From the NCBI GenBank assembly GCA_963667785.2, contig CAXXMU010000001.1, positions 576,001 through 640,000 on the forward strand: DNA of 64,000 nucleotides, written 5' to 3'. This document shows, in pieces, positions 4,576 to 62,455 of the stretch. The notes beneath the pieces were generated by a model, which saw only the letters and a list, made by a program, of their open reading frames with translations, did not search any database and was not told where the DNA came from. Position 1 is the first letter of the stretch, and every line of letters begins with the position of its first letter. The DNA comes from Alphaproteobacteria bacterium (lineage in GTDB: Bacteria; Pseudomonadota; Alphaproteobacteria; UBA828). A program made the position numbers and the translations under genes.

Positions 4576-5595
4576 CTAGCGGAAGTGCGGGAGCACGTGG
4601 TCGGCGTAGGCCGCGACGATCTGCTCCTCGCCGCCGTTGGTGAGATAGATGTTGAACTGGGTGACGCCCGCCGCCTCCAGCGCCCGGATCTTCTCGACAT
4701 GGGCCTCGGCCGGGCCGATCACGCAGAAGTCCTCGGTGATCTCAGGCGTGACGTAGGCGCTGTTGTCCGATTCCAGCGCCGTGTGCTGGTGGTAGTCGTA
4801 GCCCTCGTCGGCGCCGACGCCGTCGCGCCGCGCGATGTATGAGGTGAGGCTCGCCGGAACCAGATCGGTGCCGGCGCCGTGGTGCTTGACGATGTCGGCC
4901 ACGTGGTTGCCGACCAGCGCCGGGAACCACTTGGTCTGGGCGATCCCGGTCTCGCGGTCGCCTACCCAGACGGGCGCGCAGGCCATGACTCGGTAGCCCG
5001 CCATGTCGCGGCCCTCGGCGGCGCCCGCGGCGCGCGCCTGGTCCCCCATCCATTGGCAGAGGCCCACATCGGCGAGCTGCACGATGAGCCCGTCGCCGAC
5101 GCGGCCGGCCGCCGCCAGCGCCCTGGGCCCGTAGGCTGCGATCCAGACCGGCATCTCGTAGCCGCCGGTCCAGTCGAACTGCACCGGCTCGGGCGCGCCG
5201 GCGTAGCTCACCGCGTCGCCCCGCACCAGCGCCTTCATGGCCCGGCAGAACTCCTCCAGCCGGGCGACCGTCGCCGGCCGCTTGCCGATCACCCTGACGG
5301 CGCTGTCGCCGCGCCCCACGCCCATGTCGAAGCGGCCTTCGGACTGCACCGCCATCGCCGCGAAGAGGCTCGCCGCCACCGACCAGTCGCGGGTCACCGG
5401 GTTGGTCACGCAGGGGCCGAAGCGCAGCCTGGACGTGTGCTCGATGGCGACCGCCATCTGCGGATAGAGGTCGCGCCACAGCACGTGGCTGTCGAAGAAC
5501 CAGGCATAGTCGAAGCCCGCGGCCTCGGCCTGTCGGCAGATGGCGACGACGCGCTCCTTCTCGAGATCGCCGCGAAAGGTGATGGCGAATTCCAT
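4576..5595 (-). CDS. LLM-class (luciferase-like) oxidoreductase, probably F420-dependent
   Basis: AEAAGFDYAWFFDSHVLW, GPCVTNP, GVGRGDSA, AAYGPRAL..AG.VGDG; directly downstream of npdG; start MEFAIT. Confidence 0.85.
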   Translation of the reverse strand: MEFAITFRGDLEKERVVAICRQAEAAGFDYAWFFDSHVLWRDLYPQMAVAIEHTSRLRFGPCVTNPVTRDWSVAASLFAAMAVQSEGRFDMGVGRGDSAVRVIGKRPATVARLEEFCRAMKALVRGDAVSYAGAPEPVQFDWTGGYEMPVWIAAYGPRALAAAGRVGDGLIVQLADVGLCQWMGDQARAAGAAEGRDMAGYRVMACAPVWVGDRETGIAQTKWFPALVGNHVADIVKHHGAGTDLVPASLTSYIARRDGVGADEGYDYHQHTALESDNSAYVTPEITEDFCVIGPAEAHVEKIRALEAAGVTQFNIYLTNGGEEQIVAAYADHVLPHFR

Positions 5596-5606
5596 GTCAG
5601 CCCCCG

Positions 5607-6275
5607 TCACTCGCTTTCCGGCCAGATTCGCACGCCCGCGTGCTTGAAGCCCGTCGTCTTCGACATGTTGAGGCGGATGAGCAGCGGGGTGATCGCCTCG
5701 ATGCAGCGGGCGCTCTCGGCCGGGCCGCAGTTGTAGGCGCGGGCGCCGATGGTCTCGATCAGCGCCATCACGTCCCGCTTCGCCTCGAGGTCGTCGCCGC
5801 AGACGAGAATGTCGCAGTTGATCGGCTGATCGAGCGCGGCCAGCACATGGGCGGAGACGTTGTGCAGCGCGCCGACCACGGCGCAGCCCTCGCCCAGCAT
5901 CGCCTGCGCCGCCTCGGTCGCCGAGCCCTCGGGCGGCATCGCCGCCTTGCGCGGGTTGCCGGCGGCGAGCGGCACCGCCATGTCGACCAGGATCTTGCCC
6001 TGCAGCGCGCCCGCCAGCCCGGCCAGCGTCGCCTGATGAGCCGACCACGGCACCGCCAGCACCACCAGCCGGTCTGCGCGGGCGACCGCGTCCGCATTGG
6101 CCGCGCCGGCGATGCTCCCCGGCGCACCGGGGACGCCCGCCCTGAGCTCGGCGGCGATGTCGGCCGCCCGGTCGGCGTCGCGCGAGCCCACGACGATATC
6201 GATCCCGGCGAGCGCGCAGCGCTGCGCCAGGCCGCGCCCCTGCGGGCCGGTGCCTCCGATCACGGCGATCGCCAT
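5607..6275 (-). CDS. npdG: NADPH-dependent F420 reductase
   Basis: [52 protein letters not shown]. Confidence 0.9.
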
Positions 6276-7371: not shown

Positions 7372-8634
7372 CTATTGCGCGCGGTATTCCTCGTCCAGGA
7401 AGAAGCGGCTGTCGTACTCCTCCACGCCGAGGTGACACTCGGCGCAGAACTCGACCCGCGCCGCGCCCTTGCCGCCGGTCGCGCCGATCACCTTGCCGCT
7501 CGGCATGATCAGCGTGTAGCGCCAGTCGCCCGTATCGGGGTCGAATCCCGCCTCCATCTTCTCCATCAGGAAGAGCGGCCCAGCACCCACCCGGCCGCCG
7601 GCGGTGACGGTGAAGCTGTCCTTGGCGAGCACGGTGCCCACAGGCGCGGGACCGGCCTCCTCGAAGAGGGCGTAGTTATCGGCGCCGATATCGTTGGCGT
7701 AGTTGTTGACGTAGCGCGCCCCGTGGGTGTCCGAGACATAGGGCTGGGCGGCGACGTTCCGCCAGCCCAGGTAGGACGCGGCCCACTGATTGCCGGACTT
7801 CGCATAGCCCTCGGCCATGGCCCCGCTGATGCAGGCGTAGGCGTCGCGGGCTTCGTCCGCCGTCAGCTCGACCTCCTCGCCGGCAGCACAGGGGTTGCAC
7901 GGCCCGCAGGGGTTACAGGGAGCGCACGGATTGCAGGCCGCCGCGCACGGGTTGCACGCCGCCGCGCACGGATTGCATGGGTTGCAGGGAGAGCACGGGT
8001 TGCACGCCGCCGCGCATGGATTGCAAGCCGCCGCGCAGGGGTTGCACGGATTGCAGGGAGCGCACGGATTGCAAGCCGCCGCGCATGGATTGCAGGGGTT
8101 GCAGGGAGCGCACGGATTACAGGCCGCCGCACAGGGGTTGCACGGAGCACACGGTCCGCAGGGGCCGCTCGCTGCGGCGAGGCGCGGCACGACGCAATCG
8201 GAACTCGCCGCCGCGCCCGCCGCACAGGGATTGCACGCACCGCACGGCCCGCAGGCGCCGGCACAGGGGTTGCATGGGTTGCACGCCCCGCACGGGTTGC
8301 ACGGCCCACACGGGCCGCAAGCAGCCGCGCACGGGTTGCACGGATTGCAGGGACTGCACGGGCCGCAGGCGCTTGCGCACGGCCTGCACGGATTACAGGG
8401 ATTGCAGGCTGCCGCGCAGGGGTTGCACGGGTTACAGGCCCCACACGGGTTGCACGGCCCGCACGGATTGCAGGAGGCGAGCTGGAGAGCGCCCGCGTCC
8501 TGCTGCGGCGGAGCCACGGCCGGCGCATCGCCGTCGGGCGCGCTGGCCAGGGCGTGGCCGCCGCCGGCGGCGACCGCGAGGCCGATGACCACGGGGACCA
8601 CCGTTCCGGCGAGCAGGGGTTTCGTGCGTGGCAT
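7372..8634 (-). CDS. Secreted CNPC-repeat (Cys-rich) protein with C-terminal cytochrome P460/c'-beta-like haem domain
   Basis: GAGGGAGG RBS before ATG 8634; signal peptide [10 protein letters not shown]...GHALA; two Cys-x-x blocks; C-terminal GTVLAKDSF / LFLMEK / GDWRY / CAECH. The 779-aa ORF in the track is an over-extension. Confidence 0.85.
7888..8472 (-). repeat. Coding tandem repeat of C-[N/G/A/S]-P and C-AAA units (9-12 nt units, degenerate)
   Basis: Two blocks (27 and 29 Cys by manual count) separated by [18 protein letters not shown]; synonymous variation between units. Confidence 0.95.
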
Positions 8635-8662
8635 GTCGGGCCTCCCTCGTTGACCGTATCCG

Positions 8663-8682
8663 TCGCGACGTGTCCGTCGCGA
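8663..8682. promoter_or_regulatory. Perfect palindrome TCGCGACG-N4-CGTCGCGA in divergent promoter region (candidate operator or 5' hairpin)
   Basis: 8-bp inverted repeat containing GCGAC...GTCGC between the divergent starts at 8634 and 8773. Confidence 0.3.
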
Positions 8683-8772
8683 ATTGTCGACGAGTGCATG
8701 GTGCGGAGCAAACCCCTTCGACTCAAATTTTTGTGATTCCCGCGTCGGGCGGGCGGGGGCTACGCTCATCCG

Positions 8773-9636
8773 ATGATCGCTCTCCGTGCCGCTCTTGCCG
8801 CGTGTCTCGTCGTCGCCGGCGCGCTGCTCGCGGGCTCCGCAGAGGCCGCTGGCGCGATCGTGCCGGAGGTGGTCGAGGTTCCGGCCGGCTCCTTCATCGC
8901 GGGCTCCGATGCGGCCGAGCGCGAGTACGCCTACCGGCTCGACGAGGCGGCCTACGGCCACTCCCGGACTCGCGAGCGCGGCTGGTACGACCGCGAGCGC
9001 CCGCGCGGCCCCAAGTCGCTCGACGGCTTCCTCATCACGCGCAACCTGATTACCAACGCCCAGTACCGGGCGTTCGTGGCTGCCACGGGCCATCGCGTCC
9101 CCGATGTCGATCCCGAGACCTGGCGCGGCTATCGGCTCATCCACCCCTATGAGCGCACCCGCCGCCATGCGTGGGCGGACGGCCGGCCGCCGCCGGGGCG
9201 GGAGAATCATCCCGTGGTCATGGTCTCGCACGGCGACGCCATGGCCTATGCGGCCTGGCTCTCGGCCGAGAGCGGGCACGGCTGGCGGCTCGCCACCGAG
9301 CTCGAATGGGAGAAGGCCGCGCGCGGGACCGACGGCCGCTTCTTCCCCTGGGGCGACACCTTCGACCCGGCCCTGCTCAACAGCCACGACAACGGTCCTT
9401 TCGACACGCTGCCCGCCGGCAGCTTTCCCGCAGGCGCGAGCCCTTACGGCCTGCTCGACGCGGCGGGTCAGGTCTTCGAGTGGACGGCGTCGCCGGGCAA
9501 TCCGGGGCGCTTCCTCGTGAAGGGCGGATCGTGGGACGACAGCGGCTGCGGCATCTGCCGTCCTGCGGCGCGGCACGGGCGGCCGGCGGACATCAAGCAC
9601 ATCCTCGTCGGCTTCCGCCTCGTCAGGGAGCCGTAG
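8773..9636 (+). CDS. Exported FGE-sulfatase (SUMF1/EgtB/PvdO) family protein
   Basis: Signal peptide; [84 protein letters not shown]. Confidence 0.92.
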
Positions 9637-9676
9637 AGGACGGAGAGCCGGCACTGGCCCGCTCCCGTCGCCGCGT

Positions 9677-10072
9677 TCACGGCCTGCGCGCCAGGAGATC
9701 GATTTCGACACGGGCGCCGAGGGCGAGCCCGGTGACGCCGACGCAGGTCCGCGCCGGGCGCCGCTCGGGATCGAAGTAGGTCTCGTAGACCGCGTTCATC
9801 GCCGCGTAGTCCTCCTCGAAGTGCGTGAGATAGACCCGCGCGACGATTACGTGCTCGAGCCCGAGGCCGAGAGAGTCGAGCACGACCTTCAGATTGGCCA
9901 TGACGTTCCGGGTCTGGCCCTCGATGCCGGCGGGCAGGGGAGCGGCCTCGTCCTTCGGATCGTTGGGCATTTGACCTGTGACGAACACCCAGCCATCCGC
10001 TTCGACGGCGTGGCTGAAGGGAGCCACCGGCGTCGGTGCGCCGGCCGCCATGTGAAAGATCGGTGCTGTCAT
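9677..10072 (-). CDS. RidA/YjgF-family protein
   Basis: [39 protein letters not shown]...VEID. Confidence 0.92.
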
Positions 10073-10194
10073 CGGCATCCTCCCATCTCGCGCGCGTCCG
10101 AGCGGCGCCGCACCTGCGGCGCCACCGCGCAGACCATGACTCCGGCAAGATAGGCGGGCTAGTCTTCTGCAGGACAGGACGGGGAGGGCTCCTC

Positions 10195-11097
10195 ATGCGC
10201 CTGACGCGCCGGGCGGTGCTGGTCGGAGGGGGCGCTCTGCTCGCGGCGCCGGCGCTCCGAGCCTCGGCCGCAGAGCCGCCCTCGCGGCTCATTCCGGCGA
10301 CCGGAGAGCCGGTGCCCTCGATCGGGATCGGAAGCTGGATCACCTTCAACGTGGGCGACGATCCGCTGCTCCGCGCCGAATGCCGCGCCGTCATGGCTGC
10401 CTTCCTGGAGGCGGGCGGGGGGATCGTCGATTCCTCGCCCATGTACGGCTCCTCGCAGGAGGTCATCGGCGATGCGCTGGAGACGCTGGGCCGCCCGCCC
10501 GGCCTCTTCTCCGCCGACAAGGTCTGGACCGACGCGGCCGACGGCCCGTCCCAGATCGCGGAGACGACCCGCCGCTGGGGGATCGAGCGCTTCGACCTGC
10601 TGCAGGTCCACAACCTGATCGACTGGGAGGCGAACCTCGACACCCTCGCCGCCATGAAGGAGGCGGGCCTGCTCCGCTATACCGGCGTCACCACCTCGCA
10701 CGGCCGCCGGCATGGCGAGCTCGAGGAGGTCATGCGCCGCCGGCCGCCCGATTTCGTCCAGCTCACCTACAACATCGTGGACCGGGAGGCGGAACGCCGG
10801 CTGCTGCCGCTCGCGATGGAGCGCGGGATTGCGGTCATCTGCAACCGGCCGTTTCAGCGCGGCCGCCTGCCGGACAGGCTCGCGGGCCGGCCGCTGCCCG
10901 CCTGGGCCGGCGAGATCGGGGTCTCCACCTGGCCCCAGTTCCTGCTGAAGTTCATCATCTCGCATCCCGCAGTCACGGCTGCCATCCCGGCGACGCGACG
11001 TGTCGACCACGTGCGCGAGAACAAGTCCGCCGCATTCGGCCCCATGCCGGACGCCGCCCTGCGTCGGCGAATGGCGGCGCATGTGCAGGGCCTGTAG
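10195..11097 (+). CDS. Aldo/keto reductase with twin-arginine signal peptide
   Basis: MRLTRRAVL Tat motif; IGIGSW, DSSPMYG, ADKVW, DLLQVHNL, GVTTSHG, QLTYN, AIPAT. Confidence 0.9.
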   Translation: MRLTRRAVLVGGGALLAAPALRASAAEPPSRLIPATGEPVPSIGIGSWITFNVGDDPLLRAECRAVMAAFLEAGGGIVDSSPMYGSSQEVIGDALETLGRPPGLFSADKVWTDAADGPSQIAETTRRWGIERFDLLQVHNLIDWEANLDTLAAMKEAGLLRYTGVTTSHGRRHGELEEVMRRRPPDFVQLTYNIVDREAERRLLPLAMERGIAVICNRPFQRGRLPDRLAGRPLPAWAGEIGVSTWPQFLLKFIISHPAVTAAIPATRRVDHVRENKSAAFGPMPDAALRRRMAAHVQGL

Positions 11098-11160
11098 CGC
11101 CGCCCGGCTCGATACGGAACGCGGCGGGACGCTCGGGCGAGGCAGACGCGCGGCCTAGCC

Positions 11161-11823
11161 GTGTTCTGGGCGCTCAAGGATCTGCTGCCGTTCTCGCCGC
11201 GCGTCTATTGGCGGCTCTTCGCCCTGGAGAACGAGGCGGTCTGGCCGGGGCAGCCGGTGGCGCTGGCGGCCGCTGCGCTGCTCGCCCTCTCCCTGGTGCT
11301 CGGGCGCCGGCCCTCCGGGCGCTGGCTCGGCCCGCTGCTCGGGATCGCCTGGCTCTGGACCGGCTGGCACTTCGTCGCGCTGCGCTACGGCGCGGTCAAC
11401 TGGGTCGCGCCGACGCTGGCCTGGGGGTTCTACGCCGAGGCCGCGCTGCTGGCGGCCCTCGGCCTCTCCGGCCGGCTCGCCTTGCGCCGGCGGGGGCACG
11501 GCGCCTGGCTGGGCACTGGCCTGCTGGCGGCGGCGGTGCTGTGGCCTCTCCTTGCACCGCTCGACGGACGATCCTGGCACGAGGCGGAGGTCGTCGCGCT
11601 CGCGCCGGACCCCACGGCCGTCGCCACGCTCGGCCTGCTGGCGCATGCCGCCCGCAGCCGGTGGACAGCCCTCCTCGGCATCGCCCCGGTGCTGTGGCTC
11701 GCGCTGTCCGCGCTCACGCTCGTCACGATGGGTGCCTGGCAGGGCTGGGTGGTGCTTGTCGCCCTGCTGATCGGCCTCGCCGCATGGGTCGTGCCGGGGC
11801 GCACCGCTGCGGGCGCCCGTTGA
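11161..11823 (+). CDS. Polytopic membrane protein, DUF6064-like
   Basis: LLPFSPRVYWRLF..ENEAVWP N-terminus, several TM segments, APDPTAVATLGLL motif; family name from recall. Confidence 0.65.
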   Translation: MFWALKDLLPFSPRVYWRLFALENEAVWPGQPVALAAAALLALSLVLGRRPSGRWLGPLLGIAWLWTGWHFVALRYGAVNWVAPTLAWGFYAEAALLAALGLSGRLALRRRGHGAWLGTGLLAAAVLWPLLAPLDGRSWHEAEVVALAPDPTAVATLGLLAHAARSRWTALLGIAPVLWLALSALTLVTMGAWQGWVVLVALLIGLAAWVVPGRTAAGAR

Positions 11824-11919: not shown

Positions 11920-12681
11920 ATGGCTAAGGCCCAGGCGACCAAGAGCGGCCGGCAGGAGGAGACCCGCCACCTCGACATGGCGACGCAGCCCGTGAAGAGG
12001 CTGCGCATGATGCTCGCCGCGGGCGAGGACGTGCTCGAGATCCAGCGGGTGCTCGGCCGGACCGGCGACAGCGTGGTGAGCGAGCTCCTGCGCGGCCATG
12101 AGACGTTCTACGAGTGGGATCATTACCCGAAAGGGGACGTCTTCGACGGCGAGAGCCACGCCCAGTACTTCTACCACACCCATCCCGGCGGCCTCAGGGA
12201 CAAGGAGCACGGGCACTTCCACACCTTCATCCGCGCCAAGGGCCTGCCGCGCGGCATGAAGCCCAAGCGTCACAAGAGCCGTGACAAGTGGCCCATGGGC
12301 GATGACGCGGTGACCCACTTGGTCGGCATCTCCATGGATTCCAAGGGCCAGCCGCTCCGGCTCTTCAGCACCAACCGCTGGGTCACCGGCGAGACCTGGT
12401 ACAAGGCCGACGACGTGTGCAAGGTGATCGGCCGCTTCGTCATCGGCCACGCCCGCCCGTCCTGGCCGACCAACCGCTGGATCGGCGCCATGGTGCGGCT
12501 GTTCTGGCCGCAGGTCATGATGCTGCTGAAGGCGCGGGATCAGGTGATCGAGAACTGGGCCGCCCAGAATCCCGCTCTCGACACACTCGAAGACCGCCGC
12601 CTCGAGGTGGCCTCGCAGGCCGAGGTCGACATCGAGGCGCAGCTCGCCGCGGTCAGGGCCGCTCTCGACGCACGGACGTGA
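11920..12681 (+). CDS. His-motif protein, DUF6969-like
   Basis: WDHYP..DV.D, QYFYHTH, EHGHFHTF, HLVGISMD..G.P.RLF.TNRWVTGETW; good high-GC codon usage; family name from recall. Confidence 0.7.
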   Translation: MAKAQATKSGRQEETRHLDMATQPVKRLRMMLAAGEDVLEIQRVLGRTGDSVVSELLRGHETFYEWDHYPKGDVFDGESHAQYFYHTHPGGLRDKEHGHFHTFIRAKGLPRGMKPKRHKSRDKWPMGDDAVTHLVGISMDSKGQPLRLFSTNRWVTGETWYKADDVCKVIGRFVIGHARPSWPTNRWIGAMVRLFWPQVMMLLKARDQVIENWAAQNPALDTLEDRRLEVASQAEVDIEAQLAAVRAALDART

Positions 12682-12791
12682 GGCGGCGCAGCCTCGTCGG
12701 GCCCGGTGCCGTCACGATACCGGGCCCGAAATGAAGAACGCCGCCTCTTGCGAGGCGGCGCCCTCGGATAAGGTCAGAGATACGCGTGAGC

Positions 12792-12995
12792 CTAGCTCGA
12801 TGCGCACGGATTGCAGGCGCATGGATTGCAGGCGCACGGGTTGCAGGCACACGGGTTGCAGGCACCGCAGGGGTCGTCATCGTGCGAATCCGCAACCACG
12901 ATCGGCGTGTCGCCAGCGGATACGGCCGACGGCGCGAGAGCGGCGCCGGCCGCCATGGTGACAACGCTCACGGCAACCACGGTCTCCTTGATCAT
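12792..12995 (-). CDS. Small secreted Cys-rich peptide (67 aa) with (CNPCA)n core; putative RiPP/metallophore precursor
   Basis: Strong AAGGAGGAG RBS; MIKETVVAVSVVTMAAGAALAPSAVSA signal, then [40 protein letters not shown]; 9 Cys. Confidence 0.85.
   Translation of the reverse strand: MIKETVVAVSVVTMAAGAALAPSAVSAGDTPIVVADSHDDDPCGACNPCACNPCACNPCACNPCASS
12804..12863 (-). repeat. 4 x 15-bp coding tandem repeat (ACNPC)
   Basis: Plus strand gcacggattgcaggc / gcatggattgcaggc / gcacgggttgcaggc / acacgggttgcaggc; all differences synonymous. Confidence 0.95.
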
Positions 12996-13156
12996 GATGG
13001 GTTCTCCTCCTTGCAGGCGCATGTTGTGATTTTGGTTTCGCGCCGCCGTTCTGGCTGGCCTGTCTGTGCGAAACCTGGGCCATTGTGGTGTATATCGGCA
13101 ACGGTTGAAAGGAGTTTCGCCGCCACGGTGGCGGCCTAGGCGCACGGGGGCGGCCG

Positions 13157-13933
13157 ATGCCCGGCTCGAGCAGCGACGACTATCCGAGGCTTGCGGCTGC
13201 GGCCCGGCGCCTCGCGCTGGAGGCCGGGCGGGCGATCATGGCCCTCTACGGGCAGGCCGCAGAGGTGCAGATGAAGGATGATCGGTCGCCGGTGACCGAG
13301 GCGGACCGGGCCGCCGATCGCCTCATCGTTTCGGGCCTGCGTGCCGCTGACCCCCGTATCCCCGTGATCTCGGAAGAGAGCATGGCCGACGCCGCACCGC
13401 CTGCGGGCGAGCGCTTCTGGCTCGTCGATCCGCTGGACGGAACCAGGGAGTTCATCGCCGGATCAGGCGAGTTCACGGTCAACATCGCGCTGATCGAGGC
13501 CGGCCGGCCGGTGCTCGGCGTCGTGCACGCGCCGGCGCAGGAAGAAGTCTATGTGGCAGACGGGCAAGGGCAGGCCGTGCACGTCGTCGGCGCGCGCGCG
13601 CCGCAGGTGATCCGCGCCCGCCCGGTGCCGGCCGTCGGCCCGGCGGTCATCGCCAGCCGCTCGCACCGCGATGCCGAGACCGATGCGTTCATCGCGGGCC
13701 TCGGGCCGTCACGGACCGCGAGCGCCGGCAGCGCGCTGAAGTTCGGCCTGCTGGCGCGGGGCGAGGCAGATCTCTACCCCCGCTTCGGCCGCACCATGGA
13801 GTGGGACACCGCCGCAGGCCAGGCCGTTCTCGCCGCCGCAGGCGGACACGTCCGTGACCTCGGCGGCCGCGAGCTCGGCTACGGCAAGGCGGGGTTCGTC
13901 AACCCTCCCTTCGTCGCCAGCGGCGAGGACTAG
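13157..13933 (+). CDS. cysQ: 3'(2'),5'-bisphosphate nucleotidase CysQ
   Basis: SPVTEAD, SEE, FWLVDPLDGTREF, SRSH, GSALKF, YPRFGRTMEWDTAAG. Confidence 0.93.
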   Translation: MPGSSSDDYPRLAAAARRLALEAGRAIMALYGQAAEVQMKDDRSPVTEADRAADRLIVSGLRAADPRIPVISEESMADAAPPAGERFWLVDPLDGTREFIAGSGEFTVNIALIEAGRPVLGVVHAPAQEEVYVADGQGQAVHVVGARAPQVIRARPVPAVGPAVIASRSHRDAETDAFIAGLGPSRTASAGSALKFGLLARGEADLYPRFGRTMEWDTAAGQAVLAAAGGHVRDLGGRELGYGKAGFVNPPFVASGED

Positions 13934-19366: not shown

Positions 19367-19684
19367 CTAACGGTCGTTGAAGAGCGGGCCGCTGAAGAGG
19401 GTGAGCCCGCCGAAGCGGTGCGACAGGCCGACCTCCCCGCCGTACTTGTAGAGCGTCAGGCCGCCGTAGGCCCGCGAGACGCCGTGTCTGCGGTCGATGC
19501 TGTAGGGAATCGAGCCGCCGTACCTGTGCGCCAGGCCGGTCTTGCCGTCGCAATTGTAGATGGCGAACGCGCCGAAGCTCTTCGCAAGGCAACGGGCCTG
19601 CGCGGAATCGCTCAGCCACAGGGAAGCGACGAGGCAAGCGATCACACCACCCGCGGCAATCATGCGCTGCGTGGTTCTTGGCAT
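19367..19684 (-). CDS. Small putative secreted protein with 17-residue internal repeats
   Basis: AGAAGG upstream; signal-like N-terminus ending AQA; three G-x-[AS]-x-x-[YF]-GG repeats; fills the gap between DUF1178 and ubiG. Confidence 0.6.
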   Translation of the reverse strand: MPRTTQRMIAAGGVIACLVASLWLSDSAQARCLAKSFGAFAIYNCDGKTGLAHRYGGSIPYSIDRRHGVSRAYGGLTLYKYGGEVGLSHRFGGLTLFSGPLFNDR

Positions 19685-58362: not shown

Positions 58363-60156
58363 CTAGACGAGCACCATCCCGTCTTCGGAGCGCTCCTCGA
58401 GCTCGCCGTGCTCGGGCCCAAGCTTCATCTCGTAGTGTGCGGCACCCGCCGGGATCATCGGATAGACGTTCTCTTCCTTGTCCACGAGGATGTCGGCGAT
58501 CACCGGCCCCGGCGTCTCGATCATGGCCCGGATCACGTCGTCCACCTCCTCGGGCCGGCTGGCCCGGAGTCCGGTTGCGCCGAACGATTCCGCGAGCTTC
58601 ACGAAGTCCGGCAGCGAATCCATGTAGCTCTCGGCATAGCGGCCGCCGTGGAAGAACTCCTGCCACTGGCGCACCATGCCCATGTACTCGTTGTTGAGCA
58701 GGAAGGTCTTCACCGGCAGCCGGTACTGCACCATGGTGGAGAGCTCCTGAATGACCATGAGGAGCGAGGCCTCGCCGGCGATGTCGATGACGAGCGAATC
58801 GGGATGGGCCACCTGCACGCCCATCGCCGCAGGAAAGCCGTAGCCCATGGTGCCCAGCCCCCCGGAGGTCATCCAGCGGTTGGGCTCCTCGAACTTCAGG
58901 AACTGGGCCGCCCACATCTGGTGCTGGCCCACCTCGGTGGTGAAGTAGGCGTCCCGCCCCTTGGTCGCTTCGTAGAGCCGCTGGAGCGCGTATTGCGGCT
59001 TGATGGAGCTGTTGGAGCCCTTGTAGCGCAGGCAGTCGCGCCCGCGCCACGCATCGAGCTGCCGCCACCACGCCGCCAGCGCCTCGGCGTTGGCCGCCGC
59101 GCCGCCCGCTTCCCACTCGGCCGCGATGGCGTCGACCGCGAGCCCCGCGTCGCCGAGGATGGCGACGTCCACCGGCACGTTCTTGTTGATGGACGAGGGG
59201 TCGATGTCGATCTGTACCTTGGTCGAGCCGCGCGAGAAATCGGCGAGCCGGCCGGTGACGCGATCGTCGAAGCGGGCGCCGACCGCGATCATCAGGTCGC
59301 ACTCGGCCATCGCCATGTTGGCTTCGTAGGTGCCGTGCATCCCCAGCATGCCGAGGAAGAGCGGGTCGGAGCCCGGATAGCAGCCGAGCCCCATCAGCGT
59401 GTTGGTGATGGGAAAGCCGGTGCGGCGCACCAGCGCCGCGAGGCTCTGCGCGGCACCGGGGCCGGCATTGATGACGCCGCCGCCGGCATAGAAGAGCGGG
59501 CGCTTGGCGGCGGCCATCAGCTCGACCGTGCGCTTGACCGCATCTGCATCAGGCTCCCGCTGCGGCCGGTAGGAGCGATGGTCCAGGCCGTTGCCCGGCG
59601 CCCTGGCCTCCTCATAGGGCGCCTTGGCCATCACCACGTCCTTCGGCAGGTCGACGACGACGGGGCCGGGCCGGCCGGCGCTGGCGATATGGAAGGCCTC
59701 GCGGATCGTCGAGCAGAGCCGGTCGACCTCCTTGACCAGGTAGTTGTGCTTGGTGCAGGGGCGCGTGATCCCCACCGTGTCGGCTTCCTGGAAGGCGTCG
59801 TTGCCGATCATGTGGGTCGGCACCTGGCCGGTGAGGCAGACGACCGGGATGCTATCCATGAGCGCATCGGTGAGCCCGGTGACGCTGTTGGTGGCGCCGG
59901 GGCCGGAGGTGACCAGCACCGTGCCGACCTTGCCGGTCGAGCGCGCATAGCCCTCGGCCGCGTGGACCGCGCCCTGCTCGTGCCGCACCAGGATGTGGCG
60001 CAGCTCGTTCTGCTTGAAGATGGCGTCGTAGATCGGCAGCACCGCGCCGCCGGGGTAGCCGAACACCACGTCGACGCCGAGGTCGACCAGGGTGCGGACG
60101 ACCAGCTCGGCCCCGGTCAGCTCGGCCGAGGCGTGATCCGCGGCTTCCGATGTCAC
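58363..60156 (-). CDS. ilvB: Acetolactate synthase large subunit
   Basis: FGYPGGAVLP, RHEQGA, TSGPGATN, GMHG, SGGLGTMG, GMVRQWQ; GGAAGGAG RBS before GTG 60156. Confidence 0.96.
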   Translation of the reverse strand: MTSEAADHASAELTGAELVVRTLVDLGVDVVFGYPGGAVLPIYDAIFKQNELRHILVRHEQGAVHAAEGYARSTGKVGTVLVTSGPGATNSVTGLTDALMDSIPVVCLTGQVPTHMIGNDAFQEADTVGITRPCTKHNYLVKEVDRLCSTIREAFHIASAGRPGPVVVDLPKDVVMAKAPYEEARAPGNGLDHRSYRPQREPDADAVKRTVELMAAAKRPLFYAGGGVINAGPGAAQSLAALVRRTGFPITNTLMGLGCYPGSDPLFLGMLGMHGTYEANMAMAECDLMIAVGARFDDRVTGRLADFSRGSTKVQIDIDPSSINKNVPVDVAILGDAGLAVDAIAAEWEAGGAAANAEALAAWWRQLDAWRGRDCLRYKGSNSSIKPQYALQRLYEATKGRDAYFTTEVGQHQMWAAQFLKFEEPNRWMTSGGLGTMGYGFPAAMGVQVAHPDSLVIDIAGEASLLMVIQELSTMVQYRLPVKTFLLNNEYMGMVRQWQEFFHGGRYAESYMDSLPDFVKLAESFGATGLRASRPEEVDDVIRAMIETPGPVIADILVDKEENVYPMIPAGAAHYEMKLGPEHGELEERSEDGMVLV

Positions 60157-60269
60157 GACGGTCTCCTTCCTGCGCGCATGCGCAACCGTCCCTCTGTCTG
60201 GCGGGAGGGTCGGCCGGCCCCCGAACGTGCGCACGAGCGCGCCCGTGTCGGTGGGCGGACAGTAGACGC

Positions 60270-61226
60270 TCACCCGGTGCCGGTCAATAGCAGCCGCTCG
60301 ACGAGGGCAAGGGATTCCCGTTTCGATTCCGCATGGTAACGGTCCGGCATCCGGGCCTGACCGGGCATCTGGGTGCGGAACCAGGTGGTCTGGCGCTTGG
60401 CATAGCGGCGCGTCGCCTGGCGGCCGAGCACGACCGCACGCTCCAGCGGACTCTTGCCCGCGAGATGATCGAGCAGGGCGCGAAGGCCGACCGCCTTCAT
60501 CACCGGCAGGCCGGGATCGAGACCGCGCGCGAGCAGCCGCGCCGCCTCGTCGAGCGCGCCCGCCGCCATCATGGCGTCGAAGCGCGCGTTGCAGGCGTCG
60601 TAGAGCGCCTCGCGCGGCGGCTCGAGGACGAGCACGGCCGCGCGGCCCGCATAGCGCTCGTGCCGCTCCTCCTGCCAAGAGAGCAGCGAACGGCCGGTCG
60701 CCTCGATCACCTCGTAGGCCCGCATGATCCGCTGGCTGTCGCCGGGCTCGAGCCGCCGCGCCGCCTCGGGATCGCGCACGGCGAGGCGCGCGTGCAGGGC
60801 GGCGCTGCCGTCCTGCGCAAGCAGCGCGCGGGCAGCCGCGCGCACGCTCTCGGGTATGGCCGGCACCGGCGCGAGGCCTTCGAGCAGCGCCCTGAGGTAG
60901 AACCCCGTGCCCCCCACCAGGATCGGCAGCGCGCCGTCTGCGCGGATTTGCTCGATTTCCGCCATCGCCAGGGCGCGCCAGCGTCCCGCCGAGCAGCGCT
61001 CCGTGCCGTCGAGCACGCCGTAGAGCCGGTGCGGCGCGCGCGCGCGGAGGTCTTCGTCTGGCCACGATGTCAGGATCGGCAGGTCCCGATAGAGCTGCAT
61101 GCTGTCGGCGTTGACCACCACGCCGCCGACGCGCCGGGCGGCATCGGCCGCGAGCGCCGACTTGCCGCTCGCCGTCGGGCCGCCGATCACCAGTATCGAG
61201 GGCCGGTCCCGGGCTTCGGCGTGCAT
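60270..61226 (-). CDS. miaA: tRNA dimethylallyltransferase
   Basis: GPTASGKS, NADSMQ.Y, VGGTGFY, TRRYAKRQ.TW. Confidence 0.95.
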   Translation of the reverse strand: MHAEARDRPSILVIGGPTASGKSALAADAARRVGGVVVNADSMQLYRDLPILTSWPDEDLRARAPHRLYGVLDGTERCSAGRWRALAMAEIEQIRADGALPILVGGTGFYLRALLEGLAPVPAIPESVRAAARALLAQDGSAALHARLAVRDPEAARRLEPGDSQRIMRAYEVIEATGRSLLSWQEERHERYAGRAAVLVLEPPREALYDACNARFDAMMAAGALDEAARLLARGLDPGLPVMKAVGLRALLDHLAGKSPLERAVVLGRQATRRYAKRQTTWFRTQMPGQARMPDRYHAESKRESLALVERLLLTGTG

Positions 61227-61234
61227 GCGCGGCG

Positions 61235-62455
61235 TCAGGACAGGACCAGCGAGACCAGTCCGTCGGCGAGCTTGGGTTCGAACCAGGTGGTCTTCGGCGG
61301 CAGGATCGCGCCGGCATCGGCGACCGCCATGAGGTCGTCGACGGAGGACGGATGGAGTGAGAAGGCGACCGAGGCCTCGCCGCCGTCGACCGCCGCGGCG
61401 AGCGCCGCCGTGCCGCGCCCGCCGCCCACGAAGTCGATGCGCGCATCGAGCCTCGGATCGCCGACGCCGAGAACGGGGCCGAGCACGAGGCGCGCGAGGA
61501 TCGAGACGTCGAGCCCTTCCACCACGGAGTCCGCGTTTCGCTCGCGCTCGTCGGCCGCGAGGCTGTACCAGCGGCCGTCCACATACATGCCGAACGTGGC
61601 CGGCCGTGCGGGCTCCACCGGGGCATCCGCCGGCTCGCAACTGAGCGCGGTGCCGATCGCCTGCAGGAACGCCGCCGGTGACAATCCGTTCAGCCCCCGC
61701 ACGATGCGGTGATAGCCGAGGATCCGCACCTCGTCGGCGGGGAAGTTCACCGTCAGCAGGCGGGGGTCCGGCCCGCCCGCCGCGCGACACGCCGTGCGGC
61801 CTGCGGCGGCACGGTGGTGGCCGTCGGCGATGTAGAGCGCGCCGATCGCATCGAAGCGCGCCGCCAGCGCCTCGATCTCGCCCGTGCCGTCGATCGGCCA
61901 GAGCGTGTGGGTCACCGCGCCGTCGAGCACGCAGCGGCTGAGCGGCGGCGGCTCGCAGGCCGCCGCGATCAGCCGGCGCACCTCTGCGTCCGGCCGGTGA
62001 ATCGCGAGGATGGGGCCGGTATGCGCGCCGAGCGCCGCGATGTGGCGGGCGCGGTCGGCCTCCTTGTCCGGCCGGGTCGATTCGTGCCGCTTGATCGCGC
62101 CCCCCTCGTAGGCTGCGAGCGAGGCCGCTCCTGCCAGCCCCGTTTGCGCGCGGCCGCCCGCCTCCATGCGCCAGGCGTAGAACCGGGGCGCCTGATCCCG
62201 GATCAGCAGCCCGTCCGCGATCATGCGCGCGAAGGTCGCGGCCGCACTGTCGTAGAGGGCCTGGGCGCCGGGCGGCGTCTCGGGCGCGAGGTCGATCTCG
62301 GGCCGCGAGACATGGAGGAAGCTCCAGGGCCGCCCCTGCACGGCGGCGCGGGCTTCCGCCGCCGACAACACGTCGTAGGGCGGTGCCGCCACCGCGTCCG
62401 CGTGCTCGGGCGCCGCGCGGAGCCCGGCGAAGGGCGCTAGCAGCCGGCCGCTCAC
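61235..62455 (-). CDS. DUF1015-family protein
   Basis: PPYDV, SFLHV..PE, I.RHE.T...KE.DR, YIADGHHR, PPK.TWF.PKL..GL. Confidence 0.9.
   Translation of the reverse strand: MSGRLLAPFAGLRAAPEHADAVAAPPYDVLSAAEARAAVQGRPWSFLHVSRPEIDLAPETPPGAQALYDSAAATFARMIADGLLIRDQAPRFYAWRMEAGGRAQTGLAGAASLAAYEGGAIKRHESTRPDKEADRARHIAALGAHTGPILAIHRPDAEVRRLIAAACEPPPLSRCVLDGAVTHTLWPIDGTGEIEALAARFDAIGALYIADGHHRAAAGRTACRAAGGPDPRLLTVNFPADEVRILGYHRIVRGLNGLSPAAFLQAIGTALSCEPADAPVEPARPATFGMYVDGRWYSLAADERERNADSVVEGLDVSILARLVLGPVLGVGDPRLDARIDFVGGGRGTAALAAAVDGGEASVAFSLHPSSVDDLMAVADAGAILPPKTTWFEPKLADGLVSLVLS

What the first reader, a model, noticed from the sequence alone, without database searches (positions are those of the whole stretch)
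12792..12995. 67-aa secreted peptide with an acidic spacer and (ACNPC)x4 core: RiPP or metallophore precursor
Seen: near-perfect RBS (AAGGAGGAG), hydrophobic signal ending AVSA, spacer GDTPIVVADSHDDD, then [26 protein letters not shown] (9 Cys). The core is four 15-bp units differing only at silent sites. Gene callers could easily miss or mis-start it; the ORF track extends it to 117 aa. It is a stand-alone miniature of the repeat in the 7372-8634 protein, so the motif looks like a portable module. Inference: a highly expressed periplasmic metal-binding or post-translationally modified peptide.
Basis: partly seen in the sequence, partly recalled or inferred. Interest (0 to 1): 0.75.

Follow-up and report, generated by a model that had tools for sequence, protein, structure and literature searches.

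The report
Exported cysteine-rich Asn-Pro-Cys repeat peptide
This is a real, conserved small gene for a secreted 67-residue peptide packed with cysteines in Asn-Pro-Cys repeats; it belongs to a widespread but unnamed bacterial family whose role, probably binding metals or doing thiol chemistry outside the cytoplasm, has never been tested.

Summary
Window 12792-12995 (-) encodes a 67-aa pre-peptide with a strong Shine-Dalgarno site, a Sec-type N-terminus, an acidic spacer and a 9-Cys core. The core is four 15-bp units that differ only at third codon positions.

It is a real gene. Seventeen homologous loci in 12 alphaproteobacterial MAG assemblies keep the start, ribosome-binding site and frame (dN/dS 0.07-0.36). 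They also keep a terminator hairpin with compensatory changes.

A profile search found 116 cluster representatives. Sixty-nine are small signal-bearing peptides with at least 2 Asn-Pro-Cys units. Others carry the same repeats as tails on periplasmic haem domains (P460/c'-beta, SoxA/TsdA-type), LysM, YceI and YHS. No Pfam, NCBIfam, PDB entry or searchable paper covers the module.

No RiPP-tailoring enzyme lies in the window or around the paralogues, so the RiPP reading is weak. My best guess is an unmodified, metallothionein-like thiol-rich periplasmic peptide. The main rival is a thiol or sulfur carrier serving the neighbouring haem protein. Function is untested.

The parts
12792..12995 (-). 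Coding sequence of the 67-aa pre-peptide (stop codon 12792-12794)
   Evidence: Translation. ATG, frame and architecture are kept in 17 loci. Over the first 35 codons, 14, 8 and 31 of 35 columns vary at codon positions 1, 2 and 3. dN/dS against the window copy is 0.07-0.36.
12915..12995 (-). Residues 1-27, Sec-type signal region: MIKE, an uncharged stretch T5-P22, then V-S-A; cleavage inferred after A27
   Evidence: Read directly; not run through SignalP. It is nearly invariant in relatives: 28-33 of 35 N-terminal residues are identical to the window copy, including paralogues.
12873..12914 (-). Residues 28-41, spacer GDTPIVVADSHDDD with the short hydrophobic strand motif P-I-V-V-A-D
   Evidence: P31, V33, V34 and A35 are invariant or at least 90% conserved. 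The motif recurs before each extra repeat block in multi-block relatives L002, L003, L005 and L007.
12795..12872 (-). Residues 42-67, Cys-rich core [26 protein letters not shown] (9 Cys); the tandem array is 12802-12863
   Evidence: Repeat number and linker residues vary freely among relatives. AlphaFold2 gives no confident fold (mean pLDDT 54).
13004..13012 (-). Shine-Dalgarno site AAGGAGGAG, 8 nt before the ATG
   Evidence: GAGGAGGAG or a close variant is kept at the same place in the 16 aligned upstream regions.
12725..12765 (-). Intrinsic-terminator-like hairpin (GCGCCGCCUC-GCAA-GAGGCGGCG) followed by UUCUUCAUUU
   Evidence: Folds at -29.2 kcal/mol, z = -3.8, with 0 of 200 shuffles as stable. 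A hairpin sits at this place in all 17 downstream sequences printed, with both arms changed together in L010, L014 and L017. The simple terminator scan did not call it, because the T-run is interrupted.
13034..13075 (-). Possible 5'-leader stem-loop (GGUUUCGC...GCGAAACC)
   Evidence: RNAalifold on 13 upstream regions gives 10 pairs in this stem. One pair shows a both-sides change in 3 sequences, and several show G-C to G-U changes. This is weak evidence. There is no Rfam match.
13080..13096 (-). Conserved upstream box GATATACACCACAATGG, in the promoter region shared with divergent cysQ
   Evidence: Conserved in the syntenic loci and partly in paralogue L008. No sigma-70 consensus was called. 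Its role is unknown.
7372..8634 (-). Related gene: a 420-aa protein with a signal, two long C-x-P/CNPC repeat blocks and a C-terminal cytochrome P460/c'-beta domain bearing CAECH
   Evidence: Pfam P460 scores E 4.7e-5, below the curated cut-off. The AlphaFold2 C-terminal domain has pLDDT above 90 while the repeats are below 50. Foldseek matches 7ead at E 1e-6 with TM 0.70 and also P460 structures. There are 374 relatives with the same architecture.
8773..9636 (+). Neighbour in relatives: a signal-bearing protein of the FGE-sulfatase fold
   Evidence: Pfam PF03781, E 1.9e-43. The closest solved relatives are ToxD, CalU17 and OvsA, ahead of true formylglycine-generating enzymes. It lies next to DUF6969 and the repeat-P460 gene in 9 of 9 syntenic loci long enough to show it.
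11920..12681 (+). Convergent neighbour, a DUF6969 protein
   Evidence: Pfam PF22308, E 1.4e-81. No paper and no solved relative.
13157..13933 (+). Divergent neighbour cysQ (3'(2'),5'-bisphosphate nucleotidase)
   Evidence: NCBIfam TIGR01331, E 3.5e-84, above the cut-off. It is adjacent to the small gene in 11 loci, including the most distant one, L017.

Best explanation
The locus is a monocistronic gene with its own ribosome-binding site and terminator. It encodes a pre-peptide whose N-terminal 27 residues direct Sec export. This leaves a mature peptide of about 40 residues that is acidic, intrinsically disordered and carries 9 cysteines in Asn-Pro-Cys / C-x-P-C repeats.

It belongs to an unannotated, widespread family of small exported NPC-repeat peptides. 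The same module forms the N-terminal tails of hundreds of periplasmic haem proteins.

The mechanism I think most likely is that the peptide works unmodified, through its thiolates, as a periplasmic metallothionein-like buffer for soft metal ions (Cu(I) first; also Zn, Cd, Hg). The Asn-Pro turn would bring the two cysteines of each C-N-P-C unit together. Capacity would be tuned by rapid gain and loss of repeats and by gene duplication. One plausible benefit is shielding c-type cytochrome maturation, a known periplasmic copper target.

Shown here: the gene is real, under purifying selection, has export-type architecture and is a portable module. Inferred: cleavage, periplasmic location, lack of modification and metal binding.
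For: Gene reality:
- ATG, SD and frame are kept in 17 loci from 12 assemblies.
- Third-position variation dominates: 31 of 35 columns against 14 and 8.
- dN/dS is 0.07-0.36, with a median of 0.185 over 150 pairs.
- The terminator is conserved with compensatory changes.

Family:
- There are 32 close homologues.
- There are 116 cluster representatives at E <= 1e-3. Of these, 75 are <= 125 aa, 69 of the 75 have at least 2 NPC units, and 67 of the 69 have an uncharged N-terminal stretch of at least 14 residues.

Thiol chemistry rather than fixed disulfides:
- Cys number is even in 38 and odd in 28 of 66 members.
- The window copy has 9 Cys.

Unmodified and autonomous:
- Paralogous copies occur in 4 of 12 assemblies, in unrelated contexts with no shared neighbour.
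- No tailoring enzyme lies in the 64-kb window.

Metallothionein-like traits:
- About 35% Cys in C-x-x-C spacing, no predicted fold (pLDDT 54), and modular repeat expansion.
- One fusion to a YHS putative metal-binding domain, 1 of 40.

Link to cytochromes:
- The module is fused to P460 in 374 proteins and to SoxA/TsdA-type haem domains in 13 of 40 long hits.
- c-type cytochrome assembly is a periplasmic copper target (PMC4600104; title and abstract seen in the listing).
- Exported Cys-based copper buffers exist: bufferins (PMC11626156, passages) and Csp1 (PMC7558416, passages).
Against: - No copper, zinc, mercury or cadmium homeostasis gene or metal sensor lies next to any copy. This covers 48 window proteins, 64 ORFs around paralogues, and the syntenic loci, which mirror the window.
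- The periplasm is oxidising, so C-x-x-C pairs may simply be disulfides.
- Many family members have one Cys per six-residue NPCAAK unit and few or no C-x-x-C pairs.
- Core charge flips between clades: basic in 50, acidic in 9 and equal in 10 of 69. Charge is therefore not part of a conserved metal site.
- The n-region (MIKE) carries a Glu and has no net positive charge, and no signal-peptide predictor was run.
- The N-terminal 35 residues are more conserved (28-33 of 35) than neighbouring enzymes such as CysQ (61-80% identity). That is more than a disposable signal peptide needs.
- There are no expression, proteomic or binding data.
Confidence: 0.4

Rival explanations
1. The peptide is a thiol or sulfur carrier, or redox partner, for periplasmic haem enzymes. 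The NPC cysteines would be the working groups on which open-site haem domains (P460/c'-beta, SoxA/TsdA-type) form or resolve S-S, persulfide, thiosulfonate or S-nitroso adducts. The free peptide would be a diffusible version of the tail, comparable to the carrier cysteine of SoxY (recalled).
For: - The repeat is the N-terminal tail of 374 P460-family proteins and of 13 of 40 long profile hits with a SoxA/TsdA cytochrome c domain. By established knowledge, that domain's chemistry is oxidative S-S bond formation at a Cys-ligated haem (recalled).
- In 9 of 9 syntenic loci long enough to show it, the small gene lies within about 2.1-4.1 kb of the repeat-P460 gene, and the cytochrome c gene follows that gene.
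- The odd/even Cys count is unconstrained.
- cysQ, a sulfur-assimilation gene, is the one neighbour kept even in the most distant locus, L017.
Against: - Paralogues sit far from any haem gene.
- L017 keeps the peptide without FGE-like or repeat-P460 genes within 20 kb.
- The module is also fused to non-haem domains: LysM 4, YceI 2, YHS 1 and DUF5666 1 of 40.
- The synteny comes from closely related genomes (neighbour proteins 69-94% identical), so linkage may be inherited rather than functional.
Confidence: 0.25
2. The peptide is a RiPP or protein-PTM precursor. The conserved N-terminus and the IVVAD strand would act as recognition elements. The cysteines would be enzymatically converted, either by enzymes encoded elsewhere (for example MNIO plus DUF2063, as in bufferins and oxazolins) or by the nearby periplasmic FGE-fold protein and/or DUF6969.
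For: - A strongly conserved leader sits on a hypervariable, repeat-number-variable core.
- In L002, L003, L005 and L007 each extra core block is preceded by its own acidic linker plus IVVAD motif, as in multi-core precursors.
- Sec-signal Cys-repeat precursors of 31-506 aa are known (oxazolins; PMC12452194, passages).
- The FGE-fold family contains Cys-oxidising enzymes whose motif starts C-x-P (recalled). An FGE-fold gene lies beside the repeat-P460 gene in 9 of 9 loci.
Against: - No MNIO, DUF2063, rSAM/SPASM, YcaO or lanthipeptide enzyme appears in the window or around paralogues.
- There is no profile match to bufferin families. BufA2 matched 1 of 66 members at E 0.0066, and nothing matched the window peptide.
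- The FGE-fold protein is closer to ToxD, CalU17 and OvsA than to true FGE.
- Many family members lack C-x-P (NPCAAK units).
- L017 lacks the FGE-fold neighbour.
- The rest of these genomes could not be searched.
Confidence: 0.12
3. The peptide is a structural element: a proline-rich, disulfide-cross-linkable spacer or envelope component, like the eukaryotic C-X-P repeat proteins of sperm tails or cornified envelopes. The free peptide would be a small cross-linker.
For: - There are composition-level Pfam hits to MSSP (3 of 66), Mst87F (1 of 66) and Cornifin (2 of 66; also in long hits).
- The repeats sit as linkers between the signal and folded domains, and flank LysM peptidoglycan-binding domains.
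- In the 420-aa protein only the short strand-helix between the repeat blocks is modelled with confidence (pLDDT 82), as if the repeats were tethers.
Against: - Strict conservation of N-P-C in a mere spacer is unexplained.
- A 40-residue free peptide is an odd structural element.
- The Pfam hits are weak and driven by composition.
Confidence: 0.1
4. It is not a functional protein gene. Either the ORF is a by-product of the GC-rich repeat, or the antisense 12811-13029 (+) ORF is the real product.
For: - The antisense frame shares third codon positions and is open in 16 of 18 copies.
- A simple GC3-based caller chose it.
Against: - The conserved ATG, SD site and terminator all lie on the minus strand.
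- dN/dS is well below 1 in the minus frame.
- Signal-plus-repeat architecture recurs in 69 distant small proteins.
- An open antisense frame is expected at 71% GC.
Confidence: 0.02

Closest known systems
Bufferins and oxazolins (Sec-exported, Cys-bearing RiPP metallophores modified by MNIO/DUF692 with DUF2063; PMC11626156, PMC12452194, PMC11252979)
   Same: A small precursor with an N-terminal Sec-type signal, cysteines as the functional residues, a periplasmic destination, variable numbers of short Cys repeats and occasional fusion to larger domains (oxazolins: EGKCG repeats, 31-506 aa).
   Different: No sequence relationship. No MNIO or DUF2063 gene near any copy. The genes are monocistronic with their own terminator rather than first in a bufABC-type operon. 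The repeat is N-P-C, not EGKCG.
Bacterial metallothioneins (SmtA/BmtA, MymT), described in PMC7558416
   Same: Short, Cys-rich, no fold without metal, and modular.
   Different: Those proteins are cytosolic and not built of N-P-C repeats. This peptide carries an export signal. No homology was found.
Csp1 copper storage protein (Tat-exported four-helix bundle; PMC7558416)
   Same: An exported protein whose many cysteine thiolates bind Cu(I).
   Different: Csp1 is a pre-folded helical bundle exported by Tat. This peptide is Sec-type, about 40 residues long and predicted disordered.
N-terminal NPC/CNPC repeat tails of alphaproteobacterial 'cytochrome P460 family' proteins, including window 7372-8634
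   Same: The same repeat unit and a hydrophobic strand before each block; both are present in the same locus.
   Different: Those proteins carry a folded P460/c'-beta haem domain and a different signal peptide. Their linkers are mostly basic (AAKK), while this peptide's clade is acidic. The tails themselves are undescribed.
Eukaryotic C-X-P repeat proteins (Drosophila Mst84D/Mst87F; Pfam MSSP and Mst87F; cornifin/SPRR)
   Same: Cys-Gly/Asn-Pro triplet repeats. L017's copy reads (CGP)n. There are weak Pfam hits.
   Different: The resemblance is compositional only. Those proteins are intracellular eukaryotic structural proteins, and no homology is implied.

Membership tests
Bufferin / oxazolin RiPP precursors | N-terminal Sec signal peptide on a Cys-containing precursor | tested here: inconclusive
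   The sequence shows a K-containing n-region, an 18-residue uncharged stretch, Pro at -6 and V-S-A before G28. No signal-peptide predictor or experiment was available.
Bufferin / oxazolin RiPP precursors | Match to DUF2282, BufA2 (BUF_6/12Cys) or EGKCG-repeat profiles | tested here: not met
   The window peptide has no Pfam or NCBIfam hit. Of 66 family members, 1 touches NF050166 BufA2 at E 0.0066 and none matches DUF2282.
Bufferin / oxazolin RiPP precursors | Precursor gene directly followed by MNIO (DUF692) and DUF2063 partner genes | tested here: not met
   Neither is found among 48 proteins of the 64-kb window or 64 ORFs within +/-10 kb of the paralogous copies. The gene ends in its own terminator. 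The rest of each genome was not searchable.
Bufferin / oxazolin RiPP precursors | Cys converted to thiooxazole or oxazolone-thioamide | not testable with these tools
   Needs mass spectrometry of the mature peptide.
Metallothionein (functional class) | Small, high Cys content in C-x-C or C-x-x-C motifs, no aromatic residues | tested here: met
   The 26-residue core holds 9 Cys and 5 C-x-x-C pairs. The mature part has no aromatic residues and one His.
Metallothionein (functional class) | Binds several metal ions in thiolate clusters; induced by, or protective against, metals | not testable with these tools
   No binding or expression data exist. No metal-responsive regulator or operator was recognised nearby.
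Cytochrome P460 / c'-beta family (for the 7372-8634 protein only) | P460 fold with a C-terminal CxxCH haem site | tested here: met
   CAECH is present at residues 397-401. Pfam PF16694 scores E 4.7e-5, which is below the gathering score. Foldseek matches 7ead, 9hrk and 6hiu at E 1e-6 to 2e-5 with target TM 0.67-0.70. The small peptide has no such domain.
Formylglycine-generating enzyme (for the 8773-9636 neighbour as a possible Cys modifier) | Closest relatives are true FGEs, and the substrate motif is C-x-P-x-R | tested here: not met
   ToxD, CalU17, OvsA and SUMF2 score better than FGEs. The repeats read C-N-P-C-A with no Arg at +4. The aligned stretches listed for the FGE entries end at query residues 239-258, before the C-terminal Cys region; their residue-level alignments were not printed.
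Lipoprotein (lipobox before the first Cys) | [LVI][ASTVI][GAS]C at the end of the signal's hydrophobic region | tested here: not met
   Some relatives read IVVAS-C or VQIAA-C, but 10-15 residues after the hydrophobic region and past charged residues. In the window copy, DSHDDDP separates VVA from the first Cys. The same motif recurs internally in multi-block copies.

The most novel reading that the evidence does not exclude
N-P-C repeats are a new, widespread class of exported multi-thiol 'arm'. They would serve open-site periplasmic haem enzymes (P460/c'-beta and SoxA/TsdA-type) as a protein-borne covalent carrier or acceptor for sulfur or nitrogen-oxide species. Alternatively, they would be the substrate of the adjacent periplasmic FGE-fold oxidase. 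The free 67-aa peptides would be the diffusible form, a SoxY-like carrier system that nobody has described.
Probability: 0.15. Interest if true: 0.85.

Novelty: new variant of a known kind. Interest (0 to 1): 0.6.

Why it matters
Exported, ribosomally made Cys-rich metal buffers were recognised in bacteria only recently, with the bufferins, and those need dedicated modifying enzymes. This family would be a simpler, enzyme-free version.

The family is invisible to annotation. It has no Pfam or NCBIfam model, no solved structure and no paper found, and the genes are often mis-started or called on the wrong strand.

The same module decorates hundreds of periplasmic haem proteins of unknown role (P460/c'-beta and SoxA/TsdA-type). 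Learning what the free peptide binds would therefore also explain those tails. The peptide is short enough to synthesise, so the key test is cheap.

Tried and rejected
- **Rfam.** A scan of 12600-13300 at E <= 5 gave only 4 chance-level hits.
- **Promoter and terminator scan.** The consensus scan found nothing. The terminator was recognised only by folding and comparison.
- **AlphaFold2 on the peptide.** With a 66-row alignment the mean pLDDT was 54, so there is no usable fold.
- **ESM Atlas.** It returned unnamed clusters at 0.81-0.84, below the level that counts as evidence.
- **Complex prediction.** I tested the mature peptide (residues 28-67) against residues 135-420 of the repeat-P460 protein. 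The result was no verdict (score 0.00) and is not used either way.
- **tblastn against plasmids.** The P460 domain gave no match, so no extra annotated contexts were gained.
- **Lipobox reading of IVVAS-C / VQIAA-C.** Rejected; see the membership test.
- **Haem-regulatory Cys-Pro motif.** Rejected by inspection: the order here is Pro-Cys or Cys-x-Pro.
- **Metal-regulator operators.** I looked by eye for CueR/MerR, CsoR, Zur or Fur boxes in the aligned upstream regions and recognised none. This rests on recalled consensus sequences and is not a formal test.
- **Literature.** String searches for NPCAAK, CNPCNPC, CNPCAA, NPCAAN, NPCNPCA and PCNPCN found 4 papers, none relevant. Searches for CNPC/CGPC with metallothionein, P460 with cysteine-rich, CNPC with periplasm and DUF6969 (0 papers) found no description of this module.
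- **Not checked.** bioRxiv supplements were closed, and no supplementary files were opened for any paper. The supplementary precursor lists of the MNIO landscape paper (PMC12452194) were therefore not checked and could hold related sequences.
Full report
**1. The observation**

Window 12792-12995 on the minus strand translates to [67 protein letters not shown] (67 aa, 9 Cys). AAGGAGGAG lies at 13004-13012, 8 nt before the ATG. Tandem Repeats Finder reports an array at 12802-12863 with period 15, 4.1 copies and 91% matches.

The four units differ at three sites, all third codon positions and all silent. The chance of that placement is 0.022. In all six frames of the window, CNPC occurs 27 times in the 7372-8634 gene, 4 times here and nowhere else. 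The description is therefore correct and not a chance pattern.

**2. Is it a gene?**

At 71% GC the antisense frame 12811-13029 (+) shares its third codon positions with the minus-strand frame. GC3 therefore cannot tell the two apart, and a simple GC3-based caller of mine picked the antisense ORF. Comparison settles the question.

- A word-indexed search found 33 proteins of 36-118 aa at E <= 0.01 among 37 candidates, the query included. None has a functional name.
- One scan of GTDB representative genomes returned 17 loci from 12 MAG assemblies titled Alphaproteobacteria or Rhodospirillales.
- All 17 keep the start (ATG in 16, GTG in L016), the N-terminal region, the spacer and an N-P-C / C-x-P-C core.
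- Over the first 35 codons of the 18 genes, 14, 8 and 31 of 35 columns vary at positions 1, 2 and 3.
- Nei-Gojobori dN/dS against the window copy is 0.07-0.36, with a median of 0.185 over 150 pairs.
- The GAGGAGGAG-type ribosome-binding site is kept.
- A GC-rich hairpin followed by a T-rich run is kept downstream of every copy, with both arms changed together in L010, L014 and L017. In the window it folds at -29.2 kcal/mol, z = -3.8.

A possible 5'-leader stem (13034-13075) and a conserved box (13080-13096) lie upstream. The covariation for the stem is thin: one pair has a double change, in 3 of 13 sequences. There is no Rfam match. I conclude that this is a monocistronic, strongly translated small gene.

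**3. Context**

Eleven loci share the window's synteny on the cysQ side. In 9 of the 9 that extend far enough (L002-L007, L011-L013) the order is:

- cysQ
- small gene
- DUF6969
- FGE-fold protein
- repeat-P460 protein
- cytochrome c

The window differs from these loci. It has three extra genes between the FGE-fold gene and DUF6969: RidA-like, a Tat-signal aldo/keto reductase and DUF6064, at 9677-11823. L001 ends too soon to tell. The most distant locus, L017, keeps only the cysQ adjacency. Its DUF6969 is 5 kb away, and no FGE-fold or repeat-P460 gene lies within 20 kb.

Four of the 12 assemblies hold two or three copies. The six extra copies (L008/L009, L010/L014, L015/L016) sit in unrelated places:

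- beside a PAP2/VCPO-like protein and a Mu-like prophage
- between an ABC1 kinase plus PntAB and a PLP enzyme
- after MreB and a molybdenum oxidoreductase

Among 48 window proteins and 64 ORFs around the paralogues there is no MNIO/DUF692, DUF2063, radical-SAM maturase (only MoaA), YcaO or lanthipeptide enzyme. There is also no copper, zinc or mercury resistance gene and no metal sensor. Those ORFs came from my own ORF filter, so very small genes may be missed.

**4. The wider family**

A profile of 24 intact members, searched against 1.84 billion cluster representatives, gave 116 hits at E <= 1e-3 and 20 at <= 1e-10.

- Seventy-five hits are <= 125 aa, and 69 of these have at least two NPC units.
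- Of those 69, 67 have an uncharged N-terminal stretch of at least 14 residues.
- The shared layout is a signal (M-[ILF]-K-[KE]-T...LP-x-A-x-A), a short spacer, a hydrophobic strand (VQIAA or PIVVA[DS]) and then the repeats.

The invariant unit is N-P-C. Many members read NPCAAK, with one Cys per six residues. Core charge is basic in 50, acidic in 9 and equal in 10 of the 69. The window's clade is the acidic one. Because the profile included the signal, similarity of signals among these hits is partly selected for.

Of 40 longer hits scanned with Pfam:

- 13 carry a SoxA/TsdA cytochrome c domain
- 3 carry cytochrome P460
- 4 carry LysM
- 2 carry YceI
- 1 carries YHS
- 1 carries DUF5666
- 15 carry nothing recognised

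Separately, the C-terminal domain of the window's 420-aa protein has 374 relatives of 231-735 aa. Most carry PF16694, and some are named 'cytochrome P460 family protein' by NCBI, from Sneathiella, Kiloniellales and other Alphaproteobacteria. The 11 sequences I read all have CNPC/NPC repeat blocks before the P460 domain. The seven complete ones I read have two blocks split by a conserved CV(V/I)PRL linker.

AlphaFold2 models that protein's residues 250-420 at pLDDT above 90. The inter-block strand and helix reach 82, and the repeats stay below 50. Foldseek matches cytochrome c'-beta and P460 structures (7ead at E 1e-6 with TM 0.70).

**5. What is known about the module**

Nothing that I could find.

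- The window peptide has no Pfam or NCBIfam hit.
- Of 66 family members, single members touch four NCBIfam models at E about 0.005-0.007, one of them BufA2. Three, two and one members touch the composition-driven Pfam models MSSP, Cornifin and Mst87F.
- No PDB sequence matches at E below 0.29.
- The Atlas returns only unnamed clusters.
- Literature searches by motif string and by topic found no description.

**6. Mechanism**

The mature peptide is predicted disordered. Its conserved chemistry is the cysteine set in an Asn-Pro turn. That Asn-Pro favours a tight turn is established knowledge that I recall and did not test here.

Cys counts are even in 38 and odd in 28 of 66 members, and the window copy has 9. 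This argues against an obligatory set of paired disulfides and for thiols as the working groups. Autonomous genes in unrelated contexts, with no shared enzyme, argue that the peptide acts unmodified.

Given these points, I rank a metallothionein-like periplasmic soft-metal buffer first, at 0.4. Precedents are the bufferins (PMC11626156, passages) and Tat-exported Csp1 (PMC7558416, passages). The frequent fusion to c-type haem domains fits the finding that cytochrome c maturation is a periplasmic copper target (PMC4600104, listing only).

Against this reading:

- no metal gene lies beside any copy
- the periplasm is oxidising
- many relatives have only one Cys per unit
- core charge varies between clades
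- there are no data on binding or expression

The N-terminal 35 residues (28-33 of 35 identical) are better conserved than neighbouring enzymes such as CysQ (61-80%). A disposable signal does not explain that, and I leave it unexplained.

**7. Rivals**

- *Thiol or sulfur carrier, or redox partner, of the haem proteins (0.25).* The fusion statistics and the synteny support it. The scattered paralogues and the non-haem fusions weaken it.
- *RiPP or PTM precursor (0.12).* In its favour are a conserved leader with a variable core, and per-block IVVAD motifs in L002, L003, L005 and L007. The known Sec-signal Cys-repeat oxazolins are a precedent (PMC12452194, passages). Against it, every membership feature I could test failed. 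The nearby FGE-fold protein is closer to ToxD, CalU17 and OvsA than to true FGE. The rest of these genomes could not be searched for MNIO genes.
- *Structural cross-linker or spacer (0.1).*
- *Not a gene (0.02).*

**8. Verdict**

The locus is a real member of an unannotated, widespread family of exported N-P-C repeat peptides and tails. Its kind (exported Cys-rich peptide, probably a metal or thiol buffer) is known, but this variant has no homology to known families, appears enzyme-free and is a shared module of periplasmic haem proteins. In those respects it is new. Function remains inference, and the decisive experiments are simple.

Noticed in passing
window 7372-9711 (-): The ORF track runs the repeat-P460 gene to 779 aa from a GTG at 9711, across the whole FGE-fold gene on the other strand. 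The likely start is the ATG at 8634 ([10 protein letters not shown]..., 420 aa). The protein holds about 60 Cys in C-x-P repeats ahead of a P460/c'-beta domain, and 374 relatives share this architecture.
   Followed up: partly
window 8773-9636 (+): A signal-bearing FGE-sulfatase-fold protein with a C-terminal C-G-I-C pair. It is divergent from the repeat-P460 gene in 9 of 9 syntenic loci. Its closest solved relatives are ToxD, CalU17 and OvsA rather than true FGEs. Its substrate is unknown.
   Followed up: partly
window 9677-11823: Three genes lie between the FGE-fold gene and DUF6969 here: RidA-like (-), a Tat-signal aldo/keto reductase (+) and a DUF6064 membrane protein (+). They are absent from that position in the 9 related loci, so this is a lineage-specific insertion.
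   Followed up: partly
window 13034-13096 (-): A conserved 17-nt box (GATATACACCACAATGG) and a downstream stem-loop lie in the leader shared with divergent cysQ. Both are also partly kept upstream of paralogue L008. No Rfam family and no promoter consensus was found, and the covariation is weak.
   Followed up: partly
L017:10001-10261: The most distant copy replaces most CNPC units by a run of (C-G-P)n. This reads both as repeated thioredoxin-like CGPC and as Gly-Pro-Cys triplets.
   Followed up: no
L002, L003, L005, L007 (small ORFs at about 10001 or 8808): Multi-block versions (85-118 aa) repeat the whole unit of acidic linker (ESSLDE), (G/R)IVVAD and CNPC block two or three times.
   Followed up: partly
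L008:12061-17933 and protein P0169: One paralogue lies next to a HicA gene and Mu-like phage genes (protein F, portal, terminase, Gp27). Database protein P0169 (303 aa) starts with the peptide's N-terminus and spacer and then continues into unrelated sequence with a weak helicase-like hit, as if the gene had been disrupted or fused.
   Followed up: no
window 19367-19684 (-): A 105-aa ORF with a hydrophobic N-terminus, high GC3 and no Pfam match. It may be another small exported protein.
   Followed up: no
window 58363-61626 (-) and 4576-6048 (-): These ORFs are over-extended, as is typical of 71% GC DNA. In the 1087-aa acetolactate-synthase-like ORF the TPP domains begin only at residue about 504. 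The luciferase-like monooxygenase ORF likewise starts far upstream of its domain.
   Followed up: no
window 61709-62440 (+): A 243-aa ORF with coding-like GC3 and no Pfam family at E <= 1e-5.
   Followed up: no
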